Of a stretch of DNA of 64,000 bases, positions 24,001-33,000 are shown piece by piece; positions within the stretch are counted from its first letter, which is position 1, and each line of letters begins with the position of its first letter. The DNA lies in contig NC_092345.1 in NCBI RefSeq assembly GCF_963676685.1, positions 89,652,001-89,716,000 on the forward strand, read 5' to 3'. Source of the DNA: Mytilus edulis (taxonomy: Eukaryota). Position numbers: made by a program.

Positions 24001-27000
24001 TCAGCCATATCAGAATGGGCTTGATTAACAGACTGGCTGTATCAAATATCACTCTGCATATAATTGCTATTATTATGTTTCACAAAGTTTAATGAATAAA
24101 GTTATTATAAATAATGATTGCAATAAATTTTAATTTTTAACCAGGCAATCTATGTTTACGATATACATTTTTTTTATTACAGTAATGATATTCCAGTATA
24201 AATTTTACCTGACTTATATATAGAGTATAATATATAATCACGCAACGTTGGGCCAGTATTGGCCCAACATAGCGGAGTTGTAAATGTAATTTCAGTTGAT
24301 AAACACTTTCGGTATAACATTAACTTTTCATAAAGTCTGCTGCAATCGAAATTATCCGCCTCCCAATAGAAATAGAGCGTAAAATATGATATTATCAATT
24401 ATATTAACACAATTTCATATCGGCCCTATGTTGCTACTAACATAATGCCAACATTTGCCCGATTATTTATAACCAACATGAGATAATAATATGAATTTAC
24501 AACAACAGACCAACGTTGGGCCAATGTTGTGCAGCCGACATCAACGTGCGACCAATGTACCGACAATTTGCTAACGTTGGGCCAATGTTGTGCAGCCAAC
24601 ATAAACTTGCGACCAACGGACCGACAATTTGCCAACGTTGGGCCAATATTGTGCAGCCAACATAAATTTGCGACCAACGGACCGACAATTTGCCAACGTT
24701 GGGCCAATGTTGTGAAGCCAACACCAACGGTCGACCAACGGGCCGACCATTTGCCAACGTTGGCCCACTGTTAGTCTGTTGACTGGGAACCTGTGAATGG
24801 GGACGAAGTCTGTATGTATTATTTTTTTAATTCAATCACGTTGATAGAAGAAACCGAAATACCGTACGTAACGTGCCCGATTTTGATTCTGTTGTTAGGG
24901 AATATTAGCTGTGACTTTCTTTAAGTTATGACGTCATATTCGATGTAAACAAAAGAAACGCTTTCATCAGGTAACGTTTTTTCATATCAGACAATTATCA
25001 AAATTGAATTTGTATTGAGATCCAATCTTATATTTTACTAGACTGATAAATATATTTTTTTTCAATGTCTCATGCAAACAAGACAGATATCTGCGCAAAA
25101 GCGGAGAAAACCGGAACAGGAAGTAGATCTGAAAAAAAAGTTAACGATTTTGAGTTCATTAGTAGAATGAAAAATTCGGGAAATTTTCCCGATTTTTTTT
25201 TTTTTTTTTTTTATTGATTTTTCTACCGTAATTGGGGACTTCGTCCCCATATAAACTGTTGATTTTTTTCTCGGGTGAATTACATTACATCATCTCATAT
25301 TTGTACCTCACTATAAGACAGTGACTTTGTTCATTTTAGAAGATTTGCACGGCTACATGAAAATCCTGAAAGTGACAATATTTGGTGGATAGTTGCCTAA
25401 TTAGCACATCTCCTTGTTTTAAATCGACTGAAAAAACAATACTTTTATAAACTACAAAGTTTATTAATAGATCTTAAATATGAATACCACTTTGTTTTTA
25501 AATTTAGACAATTTGGATGAGATTTTTGTTGAACTATACTTAAGTAAGAGAGAGACATTATATACAAGTAAAATCCAACAGAAGACATAACAAAAAGTAG
25601 AGATCAGAGTAATTGCTTATTGTTGTTGACCTTAAGATAGCGGTTAGTATATATAGAACATACGCGAATTGTAAAATAAAAATAGCATTTAATTTAAATA
25701 AAAAGTAAGTGGTTCCAAATTCATAAATTGCGCCCTCATAAATTGCCACGCTCTAATCGTGCTTGATTTATAATGAACTTGTTTTGTGTTTGTGTATTTT
25801 TATCGTTGAAATGAAAAGATTGTTTATTGTTTGGATTTTTTTTATATTTATAAAAACGATATGATGATATGAGAAGACAAAATATACATGTACTTAAAAT
25901 CAATTCAATCCAACAACAATAATTACAATAAAAACGCCATTGGACTATTTTCAAAAAGTGTGGATCCTAGCTGAGATCTTACTTCTGAATTCATTGCTGA
26001 CATCGGCATACCCATTGACAACGCACCTGCACCACCCATTTCAGTCATTCTATCCTGCATTATTTCCTGAGCGTCACTTGCTCCTTCCTTCATGGCTATA
26101 CTCCTAAACATCATATTGTATGGCGATGTTTTAGAAGACGCTTGCCCAGATGTTGATGGGCTTTGTCTTAAAGTTGACATTTGCATACCATTAAATTGAC
26201 TATTAGAATTTTGTTGGGACATTCCATTATTATTAACACTTTTCCCGATGTTATTAAAACTGTGTCCGTTGTTATTAACACTTTGTCCGTTGTTATTAAA
26301 ACTTTGTCCGTTGTTATTAACACTTTGTACGTTCATAGACACACCGTTCCCACTGTTTGAACTTTTAGCTTGTAATGCTGATAGTCTCTGCATTAATTTT
26401 TGAAGAATGAGTCGTTTTTGTTCATCTATTTTAGAAAGAGATGGCGCACTTCCAGCCTGTTGTTTATTAACAGTTTTTAAATTGGATTGTGTAGACTCTG
26501 GATGTGTTAATTGAACACGAGGTTTTGGTTTCTCTGTCGGTAATGTTAGAGTCCTCACATGGGATTTATCTGGTGTCTTTGTTAGGGTTGTCGGATATGA
26601 TTCCGCTACAAACGAATTTCTGACAGTTCTTGGGTTCACACTTTTTAGTGCATTTCTTTCTCTTAAGAATGCGGTTATCGTTTCTAAATCCTGATCAAGT
26701 AATGGAGTATTCAGCTGTGCACTTGACTGACGAGATTTAGTACTAGTTGTTCGAGAAAATAAATCAAGCTTAGGACTGTTATTCGGTATTGTTTGACTTA
26801 ATCCCCGTAACTGTGGTGTTGACTTTTCTACTGGTGTGCTCACTTTTCTACTAGGAATCGATTCCAATATAGGTTTTCCAGATAATAAACTTAATAAATC
26901 GTAACTTTGGGAAGATATTCCATTTTGAGCAGGTTTGTAACTGAATTCTGTAAGAAGGGAAATAAAAAGTTTGGCTTCATAAACTTTAAATAAATCCAAC

Positions 27001-30000: not shown

Positions 30001-33000
30001 AAAGGGGACATACAAAGTATCAAAGATCAACGTACACTGGGTGAGTTTGAATTTTAGTTTCTTAGAACTGTTTTTTTTTATAAATTAAGAGAGTTTAATA
30101 GAAGTTGGTTGGTCATTATGTTATTACCTAATCACTTTTAACTTACCTGATCAAAAAACAATTGATATGATTTCTAAAATCCATAATTTAATACCATTGA
30201 TTTTTAAAAAGTAATCTTTACATGTAGGTATTTCTTAAGCCTCAAATTGGATTGTTTTTATTTTTGATTCCAAAACAAACCCACAGAAATAAACTTGTAT
30301 GCTGCCTACGCAATTTACGGTGTTTTTCTTCCCTATAATTTCTTATAACTTTCAGTTTTGACTGACCATAAAAACAAGATGAAAATAAAAATTCAGATAG
30401 AAAATATAGAGTATTTGCATTACATGATAATAAGGCCTTGTAATGACTCGCCAGTATTTTTACCTAAAACTATTTTTTTGTACTGTTTACCTTTTGGTTT
30501 CCTCATGGTTATAATGAAATGTTAAATTCCCGTTCTCAATATAACACAGTTTGCGCAAAGATTTTAAGCATGGCGTGTGAAGTGATTCTTTGGAAACAAA
30601 GGCAACTCGGTTATTTGATCATGCAAAACAATTAAATTTAGTCTATATCAAATGGGTATAAATGACTATTTACACAAAACAAACATTGGTTGGAGAGTTG
30701 TCTCATTGACATTCATATCACATATTCATATATCTATGTTTTTTTAACAAAATAAAAAGTACCGAATGTTTTTACCAGATACAAATTTGACAATTAATGT
30801 CGAATAAGCTTGAAGCCTAAGTATTTAATAACCAAACCTTATTAAAACGCGGAAGACCACAAAAAAGAAATCAGCACTTAGCATCTTTTAGAAATTATGT
30901 ATTTGTATATTTATCTGGAGATATATAGGATCCTAAATATTCACAAAATATACATTTTTAAAAGGATAATAAGATAAACACATTCTCTTTCGATCTGCTT
31001 GTACCGAAATCATAAGGATTAACCCATTAAAATCCCGAGAATGTTCCATTTACATATGACAAAAGTCTTTATAACGCCTGTTTAATTCCTTACTTGGTTT
31101 AGTAGAAAAATATTCGCTTGTATTTTAGAAAACCCCGGATCAAATACTTGTATATCAAATGAAAGAACCTACCCCGGATCAAATATTGATATATCAAATG
31201 AAAGAACCTACCCCGGATCAAATACTTATATATCAAATAAAAGAACCTACCCCGGATCAAATACTAATATATCAAATGAAAACCCCGGATACTATACTTA
31301 TATATCAAATGAAAGAACCTACCAGGTGACCATGCTCCAGAAGATAGTAGAGAACATTCACAAGTTGTTGGATCAAACTCAGTCCCTGGAGCACAATGTC
31401 GTTCATGTGCAATATTATGTACCATTTCTATATACCTCTTTGCATCACCGGGTACAACTGTTCTGCTGTATGGACATCCTATTCAAAACAAACGTATATG
31501 TAATAAATTGTTATGTAATGTCATCTACTTTAACCTAATATGCAGTTTAATGTGTAACTTGTTTTATCCTGTTGTTTGTCTCCTCTCTTTGTCTTTCTTA
31601 TCTTACCTTCCTTTTTTACAAGAAAGAATATAATCAATAGAGAAAAAGTTGTCATCTATTGCAATAACTTTCTTCTGCATCTTGTTAAAATCAAAGTTAT
31701 CATTTTTGCGTACCATATATGTACCCAAACCATTAATGTCATTCAGAGATACATTTCATCGGGAATCACCATATAAAGGTTTTGAAAATTATATCCAAGC
31801 GCTACATGTGCAATGAAAAGGACTTGCTGGTGTTTATTTGATGGTATGTTATAGTTGTGCTAACGGTGTTCGAAGCGGCTTGATCATCACATCAAATGTT
31901 GAAGTATGTGCTTCATGAGTTGGTCGACCGTTATGGTATATCCGTTTCACATATGATAACGGATCATAATGTATTAACTACAAACCTGTACTCTTTTATC
32001 GACTTATTCTTAGTATTAGGTTCGTAATGACATGAGCAGCACGACGGGTGCCAAATATGGAGCAGAACATACTTATCCTCTTTCAGAGCACCAGAGATCA
32101 ACCCCAGTATTTGGTGAGGTTCGTGTTGCTCAGTCTTTTGTTTTCTATGTTGTGTGTTGTGTACTATTGTTTTTCTGTTTGTGTCATGTCGTTGTCAGTT
32201 TATTTTCGACATATGAGTTTAAATGTCCCTCTGGTATCTTTTACATCTCTTTTAGATTTTGTTAACATGAACTATTAAAATAATGATGAAAAAAGTAATC
32301 AATATTATATAATGGAAACATGTATTTATGTTCTTTATATGTAGCCGTACGAAGATTTCATTATTTTCAGACTGAAATATATATTTCATTCAAACATGAT
32401 GTTCGAAATATAATAAATTTTAGTTCCTTTAAATACAAAATAACAGATCCATCAATTGTAAAATGATGTTACACATTAGATGTTTGATCATATTTATTTT
32501 TACATAACGTTTTCTGCAGTTGTCCTGATCAGTGTTGTTATACTTGTATTCCATGTTTATGTTTGCATTTTTGTTAAACAATTGTTTGTTTATGCTTTGC
32601 AATAAGGAGGAAATCAAGGACAATTGGATATATATCTAGCTTTGTAACATCTTAAAATAAATTATTGTTGTGGTTTGTTGTATTAACAGATGGAGTTCTT
32701 GGGAATAATTTTAAAACATTAAACGAATGGATAACAACTCTCATATTCCTGACTTGGCACAGGCATTTTTGTATGTAGTTAATGATTGATTAAACCTGAA
32801 TGAATGATATGAAAAATTATTGCTTGAAACTAAGGGAGAACTTGGTGTTGTCAATTGAAATGAAACTGACGACGTCCTCATAGGTAAAATAACGATAAAC
32901 ATATAATCATAATTGGTAATCTCAATTCGACTGCATTTCTTACTTTCGCCATACCGGCTCAAGCGAGAAAATCAATCGAGTTGAGATGATAAACGATAAT

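What the first reader, a model, noticed from the sequence alone, without database searches (positions are those of the whole stretch)
25923..31655. Large secreted chitin-binding-type protein gene whose two giant 3' exons may also be alternative last exons
Seen: signal exon (phase 1), Cys module exon (phase 1-1), then a 2390-nt exon ending in TAA with AATAAA ~65 nt later, then a 1025-nt exon whose first AG after the pyrimidine tract is also phase 1. This gives isoforms of 864 aa and 409 aa with the same N-terminus. A weak AA|GTAAAA donor overlapping the stop, joined to a second AG 7 nt downstream (phase 2), would instead fuse both into 1202 aa. Established: chitin-binding type 2 modules plus low-complexity regions typify shell matrix proteins such as Pif and BMSP. 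Inference: the same last-exon switching logic is used twice in the cluster.
Basis: partly seen in the sequence, partly recalled or inferred. Interest (0 to 1): 0.72.

Follow-up and report, generated by a model that had tools for sequence, protein, structure and literature searches.

The report
Mussel secreted-protein gene with alternative tails

Summary
The window is Mytilus edulis. The two giant minus-strand ORFs, their phases, the TAA and the AATAAA 63 nt after it are all present. They belong to one gene, XP_071157856.1, which matches the window at 100% identity.

- The signal exon lies at 33656..33596, not 31655.
Three models use it.
- Two models read through to the TAA instead.
- One model uses an internal acceptor at 27744 and gives a 440-aa short form.

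So the alternative C-termini are probably real, but they arise from a composite internal/terminal exon. The CBM_14 resemblance is below threshold (20 bits against a cut-off of 22.1; 4 of 6 cysteines). The family is restricted to mytilid mussels and uncharacterised. A shell-matrix role is only an inference. Interest is low to moderate.

The parts
33596..33656 (-). Coding part of the true first coding exon. It encodes MNFKFVIAWSSLWLPLTIGQ plus 1 nt (phase 1), with donor AAG|GTAATA. A ttattgcag acceptor sits 6 nt before the ATG, so a 5'UTR exon further upstream is likely (inference).
   Evidence: tblastn of P0003 and P0002: residues 1-21 are 100% identical at 33656..33594. Sequence read. Eight of 9 named models start this way.
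31607..31655 (-). It lies inside intron 1 and no model supports it.
   Evidence: Sequence read. Used by 0 of 9 models. A scan for exons of this type (ATG, hydrophobic run, phase-1 GTRAG donor) finds 3 in 2 x 64 kb, so a chance origin is possible but not certain.
31323..31478 (-). Exon 2: a 52-codon Cys module, phase 1-1, with 4 cysteines. It is a degenerate CBM_14-like module.
   Evidence: Pfam CBM_14 E = 7.8e-4, 20 bits, below the 22.1 cut-off. The best PDB sequence hits are 8in3 (E = 0.015) and 7bwe, chitin binding beak protein 3 (E = 0.094). 51 of 51 residues are identical in M. trossulus and M. galloprovincialis.
31132..31323 (-). Tandem repeat of 39 nt, 5.1 copies, whose first unit begins at the exon-2 donor. 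It repeats the G|GTAGGTTC donor motif inside intron 2.
   Evidence: (TRF) and sequence read. An in-frame TAG precedes the later copies (ORF 31264..31482).
27745..29607 (-). E3a: 1863 nt (phase 1-1), the long basic, disordered body of the protein (pI 10.0; rich in K, P, S, T, N; no Cys). It contains two copies of a ~45-aa repeat containing ...KVNTLPKQWIYW...; M. trossulus has three.
   Evidence: Skipped in M. californianus X2 (P0012).
27670..27744 (-). E3b: a 75-nt segment (phase 1-1) encoding GASQPSIQGTDHNRPKSKRRKSKTA. It has its own acceptor (ttttcattttcttcag|G) and its own donor (CAG|GTAAAA), and it is present in every isoform type.
   Evidence: Splice sites. The acceptor is used in P0012, and in the aberrant M. 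edulis model P0014. The donor is used in P0003, P0010, P0018 and P0012.
27218..27669 (-). E3c: read-through tail 1 (with the last base of E3b, 150 codons: acidic, Thr/Pro-rich, ends ELPPSPPPK) plus the TAA at 27220..27218. It is coding when the 27670 donor is not used and intronic when it is.
   Evidence: 0 stops in frame against 10 and 9 in the other two frames. GC is 0.36, like the coding exons, against 0.23 in the next 270 nt. Present in P0002, P0005, P0006 and P0001. Homologous region and a P-rich end at the same place in the distant homologues P0004 and P0015.
27040..27155 (-). Poly(A) signals for the read-through form: AATAAA starting at 27155, 27119 and 27045, and ATTAAA at 27134. They lie inside the intron of the spliced form.
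25923..26947 (-). E4: tail 2, 340 codons plus stop, phase-1 acceptor. Ser/Asn/Gln-rich, with a 21-nt NNNGQS[VF] repeat at 26223..26333, two predicted helices and a Met-rich conserved C-terminus. A second AG puts an alternative exon start at 26940; only the fused models use it.
   Evidence: AlphaFold2 gives mean pLDDT 43, with 280 of 340 residues below 50; helices at 82-102 and 172-197 fall in blocks of mean pLDDT 64-92. AATAAA at 25828, 95 nt after the stop.

Best explanation
This is one Mytilus edulis gene for a secreted, largely disordered, basic protein. Its N-terminus is a signal peptide followed by a degenerate peritrophin-A-like Cys module.

All coding junctions are phase 1, and the large third exon is a composite internal/terminal exon.
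- If the internal donor at 27670 (CAG|GTAAAA) is spliced to the acceptor at 26947, the mRNA ends in exon 4 and the protein carries tail 2. This is the 1059-aa form, the RefSeq model of this very sequence.
- If that donor is not used, transcription and processing run on through 150 more codons to the TAA at 27218. The mRNA is cleaved and polyadenylated at the AATAAA signals 63-173 nt further on, giving an 868-aa protein with tail 1.
- A third choice, using the internal acceptor at 27744, removes the 1.86-kb body and leaves signal, Cys module, a 25-residue polybasic hinge and tail 2. This corresponds to the 440-aa form annotated in M. californianus.

Shown: the sites, the frames and the models annotated in four species.

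Inferred: that both ends are made in M. edulis itself; that the choice is a kinetic competition between splicing and cleavage/polyadenylation; and that the protein is an extracellular matrix component, possibly tethered to chitin by the N-terminal module, possibly cut at the KSKRRKSK hinge, with the tails changing what it binds.
For: - Identity of the window: P0003 (XP_071157856.1) matches exon 3 and exon 4 at 100%.
- Exon arithmetic agrees without joining anything. 20+1+51+1+645+1+340 = 1059, the length of P0003. 20+1+51+1+795 = 868, the length of P0005.
- Spliced form (27670>26947) in 3 of 9 named models: P0003 M. edulis, P0010 M. trossulus X1, P0018 M. californianus X1.
- Read-through form in 2 of 9: P0002 M. 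trossulus X2, P0005 M. galloprovincialis.
- Short form in 1 of 9: P0012.
- E3c looks coding. It is open for 150 codons (p = 5.6e-5), has 0/10/9 stops in the three frames and a GC of 0.36 against 0.23 downstream. It is 138/146 identical in M. trossulus.
- The distant homologues (about 33% identity; unnamed contigs P0004 and P0015) read through the hinge and end at the same proline-rich point.
- Read by eye against MAG|GTRAGT, the internal donor matches 7 of 9 positions, the same as the E1 and E2 donors. The stop-overlapping donor matches 6 of 9 and lacks the G at -1.
- AATAAA lies at 27155, 27119 and 27045.
- Protein nature: Pfam finds no family above threshold in exons 3 and 4. Exon 4 is mostly predicted disordered.
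Against: - No read-level data could be examined, so everything about isoforms rests on gene models made by others. Their transcript support is not visible to me.
- The M. edulis RefSeq set, as held in the protein collection, shows only the spliced form. The read-through form is annotated only in sister species.
- Two of 9 models (P0001, P0006) instead fuse both tails through 27222>26940.
- One M. edulis model (P0014) is aberrant, which shows that model quality at this locus is uneven.
- The functional part is weak. CBM_14 is below its cut-off. The AlphaFold2 model of the Cys module has pLDDT 64 and gave no Foldseek hit at E <= 0.001. No expression or proteomic evidence was found: 0 papers for the accessions or for three sequence motifs. 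Supplementary tables, where shell-proteome lists usually sit, were closed.
Confidence: 0.7

Rival explanations
1. Exon 3 and exon 4 are mutually exclusive last exons, both chosen directly from the exon-2 donor (31323>29607 or 31323>26947). This gives a long form ending at the TAA and a roughly 410-aa form that lacks all of exon 3.
For: Both acceptors are phase 1, so the junction would be in frame. A short form of nearly this design exists in M. californianus (P0012, 440 aa).
Against: 0 of 9 named models have 31323>26947. P0012 keeps the 25-residue E3b segment, so it uses 31323>27744 and 27670>26947. The three long models that contain exon 4 also contain E3a and E3b.
Confidence: 0.1
2. A single fused product. 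The weak AAA|GTAAAA donor that overlaps the stop is spliced to the second AG (26940), giving one roughly 1200-aa protein with both tails. The other forms would be annotation noise.
For: Two of 9 models contain exactly PPPN|YKPAQ: P0001 (M. edulis CAG2193130.1) and P0006 (M. galloprovincialis VDI63994.1, 1199 aa).
Against: None of the five XP_ models from three species uses it. The donor lacks the G at -1, and the route needs the second AG rather than the first one after the pyrimidine tract. P0001 also has an artificial N-terminus (MSFKKK...), which suggests ab initio modelling. In M. galloprovincialis the same locus also carries the 868-aa read-through model.
Confidence: 0.1
3. Only the spliced form (27670>26947) is a real mRNA. 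The read-through models are retained-intron or pre-mRNA artefacts.
For: The spliced form is the only one held for M. edulis RefSeq, and it is isoform X1 in the two other RefSeq species.
Against: E3c has the frame, stop distribution and GC content of coding sequence. Its stop is followed by three AATAAA signals. Homologues at about 33% identity keep the read-through frame and end at the same P-rich place.
Confidence: 0.2

Closest known systems
Composite internal/terminal exons with intronic polyadenylation (textbook case: immunoglobulin mu heavy chain, secreted versus membrane form; recalled, not from a call)
   Same: An exon carries an internal 5' splice site. Using it leads to downstream exon(s) and one C-terminus. 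Not using it leads to an in-frame stop and a poly(A) signal inside what would have been the intron, and so to another C-terminus. Sites: 27670, TAA at 27218, AATAAA at 27155. Both forms are annotated in M. trossulus.
   Different: Here both tails are long, low-complexity extracellular sequences rather than a membrane anchor versus a secretory tail. The same exon also holds an internal acceptor (27744) that can drop its 1.86-kb body. No read-level evidence was seen here.
Pif / BMSP shell matrix proteins
   Same: Secreted molluscan proteins that combine a chitin-binding type module with long low-complexity regions. BMSP and Pif are cleaved into two proteins (passages of PMC11291548). This protein has a polybasic KSKRRKSK hinge that could be such a site (inference).
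   Different: No VWA or LG domain. The chitin-binding module is below threshold with 4 cysteines. No sequence homology was detected: the exon-3 search gave 5 hits at E <= 0.001 among 1.84 billion representatives, and I read them all as this mussel family or its fragments.
Peritrophin-A / CBM_14 domain proteins, e.g. squid chitin binding beak protein 3 (PDB 7bwe) and the 25 kDa polyphenol-binding protein (8in3)
   Same: These are the best sequence matches of exon 2. The ...pgD.k.Yi......CapGteF.....C pattern aligns, and Pfam model positions 10-45 of 53 are matched.
   Different: E-values are only 0.015 to 0.094 (PDB) and 7.8e-4 (Pfam, below the cut-off). The second and third cysteines are replaced by Ala and Met in the alignments. 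Chitin binding is untested.
Ligament methionine-rich protein (LMP) of the Pinctada fucata hinge ligament
   Same: Resemblance in composition only. The last 95 residues of exon 4 are 14% Met, and the neighbouring gene's exons are 19-23% Met and 12-20% Gly. LMP is described as a Met-rich framework protein (passages of PMC13080008).
   Different: No LMP sequence was compared. BLASTP of exon 4 against two of the neighbour's three Met/Gly-rich exons found nothing. The shuffle test was marginal for one exon only (6 of 500).

Membership tests
CBM_14 / ChtBD2 (peritrophin-A chitin-binding domain) | Score at or above the Pfam PF01607 gathering cut-off (22.1 bits) | tested here: not met
   20.0 bits, E = 7.8e-4 for exon 2 alone. 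13.4-13.7 bits, E = 0.07-0.09 in P0003, P0002 and P0012.
CBM_14 / ChtBD2 (peritrophin-A chitin-binding domain) | Six conserved cysteines forming three disulfides (feature recalled from knowledge of the family) | tested here: not met
   Exon 2 has 4 cysteines. In the alignments to 8in3 and 7bwe, the positions of the second and third Cys hold A and M.
CBM_14 / ChtBD2 (peritrophin-A chitin-binding domain) | Small beta-rich tachycitin-like fold | tested here: inconclusive
   Single-sequence AlphaFold2 model with pLDDT 64.3 and pTM 0.39. Foldseek against PDB gave 0 matches at E <= 0.001. The model is too poor to judge.
CBM_14 / ChtBD2 (peritrophin-A chitin-binding domain) | Binds chitin | not testable with these tools
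   Needs a pull-down with the recombinant module.
Pif / BMSP family | VWA domain(s) together with chitin-binding and LG domains (PMC11291548, passages) | tested here: not met
   Pfam finds no VWA or laminin-G match in exons 2-4 or in P0003, P0002, P0012 or P0018, even at E <= 10 for the first three.
Composite terminal exon / intronic polyadenylation type of alternative 3' end | Internal 5' splice site inside an exon whose frame otherwise continues to a stop | tested here: met
   CAG|GTAAAA at 27670. The frame continues for 150 codons to the TAA at 27218. The donor is used in P0003, P0010, P0018 and P0012.
Composite terminal exon / intronic polyadenylation type of alternative 3' end | Poly(A) signal after that stop and before the next acceptor | tested here: met
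   AATAAA at 27155, 27119 and 27045; acceptor at 26947. Actual cleavage sites were not seen.
Composite terminal exon / intronic polyadenylation type of alternative 3' end | Both mRNA forms made from one gene in one species | tested here: inconclusive
   Both are annotated for M. trossulus LOC134706525 (X1 1104 aa, X2 911 aa). Two forms are annotated for M. galloprovincialis. For M. edulis only the spliced XP_ model was found. No reads were available.
   Found in 0 of 9 named models. This is annotation only; reads were not available.

The most novel reading that the evidence does not exclude
The 75-nt polybasic segment E3b, embedded in a 2.4-kb exon and equipped with its own acceptor and donor, acts as a splicing hub. 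Because every junction is phase 1, it lets the mussel combine "body or no body" with "tail 1, tail 2 or both" from one promoter. The neighbouring Met/Gly-rich gene appears to offer three phase-1, stop-terminated last exons behind one signal exon. Together they would make this locus a small toolkit of interchangeable extracellular-matrix tails, for shell, ligament or periostracum, that evolved within mytilids.
Probability: 0.25. Interest if true: 0.45.

Novelty: new member of a known kind. Interest (0 to 1): 0.25.

Why it matters
If both tails are made, this uncharacterised mussel protein would be a clear invertebrate example of changing the business end of a secreted matrix protein by a splice-versus-polyadenylation choice. 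It would also offer a handle on how bivalves diversify matrix proteins without new genes. In practice it shows that four annotation sets disagree at this locus, with three kinds of 3' end and one aberrant model, so the locus needs long-read evidence. It does not open a long-standing question. The gene and its isoforms are already in public annotation, and the mechanism is of a known kind.

Tried and rejected
- Paralogous Cys modules in the window. A regex scan of the six frames found only the exon-2 module itself, and tblastn of the full models found nothing else credible.
- Homology of exon 4 to the neighbour's Met/Gly-rich exons. BLASTP against two of the three exons (n2, n3) found nothing. 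Shuffle tests gave 61, 236 and 6 of 500 shuffles reaching the observed score. This is not enough to claim kinship.
- Wider family. phmmer of exon 3 against 1.84 billion representatives gave 5 hits at E <= 0.001. The ESM Atlas gave no usable hit for exon 4.
- Fold of the Cys module. The model was low-confidence and the Foldseek result uninformative.
- Literature. There were 0 papers for six accession strings and 0 for three sequence motifs. General searches on shell matrix proteins, splicing and polyadenylation returned nothing about this gene in the listings I saw.
- Rfam and tRNA scans of the window gave 0 hits.
- The automatic names "inner centromere protein A-like" and "protein piccolo-like" have no domain support. 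I take them to reflect low-complexity similarity.
- Spliced models were searched exon by exon only.
Other mussel genomes could therefore not be compared at the DNA level.

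
Full report
**What is in the sequence.** The window is AT-rich (GC 0.27-0.39 in 2-kb windows).

On the minus strand, between 25923 and 29623, it holds two very long open frames of 801 and 358 codons stop to stop. Stops make up 6.32% of codons over the six frames. Frames of 795 and 340 codons are therefore open by chance with p = 2.9e-23 and 2.3e-10.

- Exon 2 is 31478..31323 (156 nt, phase 1-1).
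- The large exon is 29607..27218 (2390 nt including the TAA).
- The last exon is 26947..25923 (1025 nt).
- AATAAA lies 63 nt after the TAA, and further signals follow at 27119 and 27045.
- The AAA|GTAAAA site at 27222 and the second AG, which puts an exon start at 26940, are both there.

**Whose gene it is.** I searched exon by exon.

Exon 3 alone finds XP_071157856.1 of Mytilus edulis (P0003, 1059 aa, "inner centromere protein A-like") at 100% identity. It also finds models from M. trossulus and an older M. edulis annotation. Exon 4 alone finds the same M. edulis protein at 100%, and M. californianus proteins at 75%. Cluster look-ups add M. galloprovincialis models and the second isoforms of M. 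trossulus and M. californianus.

In all I saw nine named gene models. The XP_ prefix marks five of them as RefSeq predictions; that is my own knowledge. I could not see what transcript evidence lies behind any of them.

**The first coding exon.** Eight of the 9 models start MNFKF(V/L)IAWSS(L/V)WLPLTIGQ. P0001 has an odd start of its own, MSFKKK.

tblastn places that start at 33656..33594 at 100% identity. The sequence there reads ttattgcag|ATCGTA ATG ... CAAG|GTAATA, phase 1.

A scan for exons of that type (ATG, hydrophobic run, phase-1 GTRAG donor) finds only 3 in 2 x 64 kb. I therefore cannot dismiss it as a minor alternative first exon, but nothing supports it. The gene extends about 2 kb beyond the finding's upper coordinate.

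**How the 3' end is really built.** The models fall into four types (alignment):

| Type | Route | Models |
|---|---|---|
| B | The large exon is left at an internal donor, GCAG\|GTAAAATA, last exon base 27670, phase 1, and joined to 26947 (...KSKTA-E-FSYKP...) | P0003 (M. edulis), P0010 (M. trossulus X1, 1104 aa), P0018 (M. californianus X1, 1075 aa) |
| A | The large exon is read through to the TAA (...ELPPSPPPK) | P0002 (M. trossulus X2, 911 aa), P0005 (M. galloprovincialis, 868 aa) |
| C | Exon 2 is joined to an internal acceptor, ttttcattttcttcag\|G, first exon base 27744, phase 1. The 75-nt segment up to 27670 is then joined to 26947 | P0012 (M. californianus X2, 440 aa) |

The ninth model, P0014 (M. 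edulis, 364 aa), runs through a wrong frame of exon 3. It nevertheless also uses the 27744 acceptor and the 27670 donor.

Exon arithmetic reproduces the database lengths exactly: 20+1+51+1+645+1+340 = 1059, and 20+1+51+1+795 = 868.

**Is the read-through tail real coding sequence?** The 150 codons after the internal donor (E3c) look coding on several counts:
- They have 0 stops in frame against 10 and 9 in the other two frames.
- Their GC is 0.36, like E3a and E4 (0.36 and 0.37). The 270 nt between the TAA and the 26947 acceptor have GC 0.23.
- They are 138/146 identical in M. trossulus, compared with 542/618 for E3a.
- The only distant relatives found (P0004 and P0015, about 33% identical, from unnamed contigs) are single long ORFs equivalent to exon 3. 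These ORFs read straight through the hinge (...SKTRKSNPAGN...), align to E3c (38 identical of 99 aligned), and end at a proline-rich C-terminus in the same place.

I conclude that E3c is a genuine alternative coding end and not merely a retained intron.

**Mechanism.** The large exon is therefore a composite internal/terminal exon:
- Splicing at 27670 removes E3c, its stop and its poly(A) signals as part of a 722-nt intron, and gives tail 2.
- Failure to splice, followed by cleavage and polyadenylation after the AATAAA signals, gives tail 1.

Read by eye against MAG|GTRAGT, the internal donor matches 7 of 9 positions, as do the E1 and E2 donors. The stop-overlapping donor matches 6 of 9 and lacks the G at -1. 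It also needs the second AG rather than the first one after the pyrimidine tract. For this reason I rank the fused form lower.

That the choice is a competition between splicing and 3'-end processing is an inference from the anatomy. That both forms occur in M. edulis is an inference from the sister species.

Because E2, E3a and E3b are all phase 1-1 and E4 begins in phase 1, every combination stays in frame.

**What the protein is.**
- Exon 2 gives a sub-threshold CBM_14 match: 20.0 bits against a cut-off of 22.1 and E = 7.8e-4 for the exon alone, and 13.4-13.7 bits within full-length proteins.
- Its best PDB sequence hits are two chitin-binding-type proteins, 8in3 (E = 0.015) and 7bwe (E = 0.094). 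In those alignments the second and third cysteines of the domain are replaced by Ala and Met. The module has 4 cysteines.
- A single-sequence AlphaFold2 model was poor (pLDDT 64), and Foldseek found nothing.
- E3a is basic (pI 10.0), rich in K, P, S, T and N, and free of cysteine. E3b is polybasic (KSKRRKSK). E3c is acidic (pI 5.3) and rich in T and P. E4 is rich in S, N and Q with a Met-rich end.
- E4 is predicted mostly disordered: 280 of 340 residues have pLDDT below 50, with helices at 82-102 and 172-197 (blocks of mean pLDDT 64-92).
- Pfam finds no VWA or LG domain, so this is not a Pif/BMSP protein.
- The family is narrow. There were 5 hits at E <= 0.001 among 1.84 billion representatives and no Atlas hit.

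My functional reading is an inference: a secreted matrix protein, possibly tethered to chitin, possibly cleaved at the hinge as Pif and BMSP are (passages of PMC11291548). I found no paper on this gene, and I could not see supplementary proteome tables.

**The "cluster".** No second Cys module is present in the window.

About 26 kb upstream on the same strand there is a good signal exon (ATG 63537, MKSICIIALVLCVMVAHVRSQAA, G|GTGAG, phase 1). It is followed by three Met/Gly-rich exons, at 61827..61685, 60673..60354 and 59708..59458. Each sits behind an AG in phase 1, and each ends in a stop. The three exons are related to one another (0-3 of 500 shuffles reach the observed score). They are not demonstrably related to exon 4 (61, 236 and 6 of 500; BLASTP of n2 and n3 found nothing).

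The gene and its isoforms are already in public annotation, and the mechanism is of a known kind. This is a new, uncharacterised member of a known kind. Interest is about 0.25.

Noticed in passing
window 59458..63537, minus strand: A neighbouring gene candidate. It has a signal exon (ATG 63537, MKSICIIALVLCVMVAHVRSQAA, phase-1 G|GTGAG donor) and three Met/Gly-rich exons (61827..61685, 60673..60354, 59708..59458). Each has a phase-1 acceptor and ends in a stop, so they could be three alternative last exons. They are mutually related in shuffle tests and have no Pfam match. The composition recalls ligament methionine-rich protein of Pinctada (PMC13080008, passages), but no sequence comparison was made.
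   Followed up: partly
window 31132..31323: A 39-nt tandem repeat (5.1 copies) starts exactly at the exon-2 donor, so the motif G|GTAGGTTC recurs several times in intron 2. An in-frame TAG lies before the later copies, so using them would truncate the protein. The 150-aa plus-strand ORF 31086..31538 is a by-product of this repeat.
   Followed up: partly
window 26223..26333 and about 28440..28760: Coding repeats vary in copy number between species. The 21-nt unit (NNNGQS[VF], 5.3 copies) in exon 4 has fewer copies in P0006 and P0012. The ~45-aa unit containing ...KVNTLPKQWIYW... in exon 3 has two copies here and three in M. trossulus.
   Followed up: partly
window 43161..43691 and 52687..53679, plus strand: Two ORFs share the motif GIPMGTNCAPL(L/I)ADLFLY. 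The first gives a sub-threshold RVT_1 match (E = 0.0025, 18 bits against a 29.6 cut-off). They are probably decayed retroelement copies lying between the two genes.
   Followed up: partly
window 45219..45269 and 46144..46194, plus strand: Nearly identical ORF fragments (YYVVI.MLYLTLPLKCEVWHA.KPGSTHH...) about 925 nt apart, so a repeated element is present.
   Followed up: no
window 9230..10195, plus strand: A 321-codon open frame is interrupted by the run of 134 N at 9757..9890, which was left untouched. Neither half has a credible Pfam match.
   Followed up: partly
window 24510..24772 and 7576..8080: Tandem repeats that create spurious long ORFs: a 61-nt unit in 4.3 copies at 24510..24772, and a repetitive block at 7576..8080 seen as overlapping ORFs in three frames.
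   Followed up: no
proteins P0007-P0009, P0011, P0013 (unnamed contigs): ORFs of 351-358 aa that begin inside the intron just upstream of exon 4 (MDSFKVYEAKLFISLLT|EFSYKP...). The contigs therefore carry unspliced sequence there, and an in-frame ATG that the M. edulis window lacks (it has TTG at that position). Whether they are genomic or transcript contigs was not examined.
   Followed up: no
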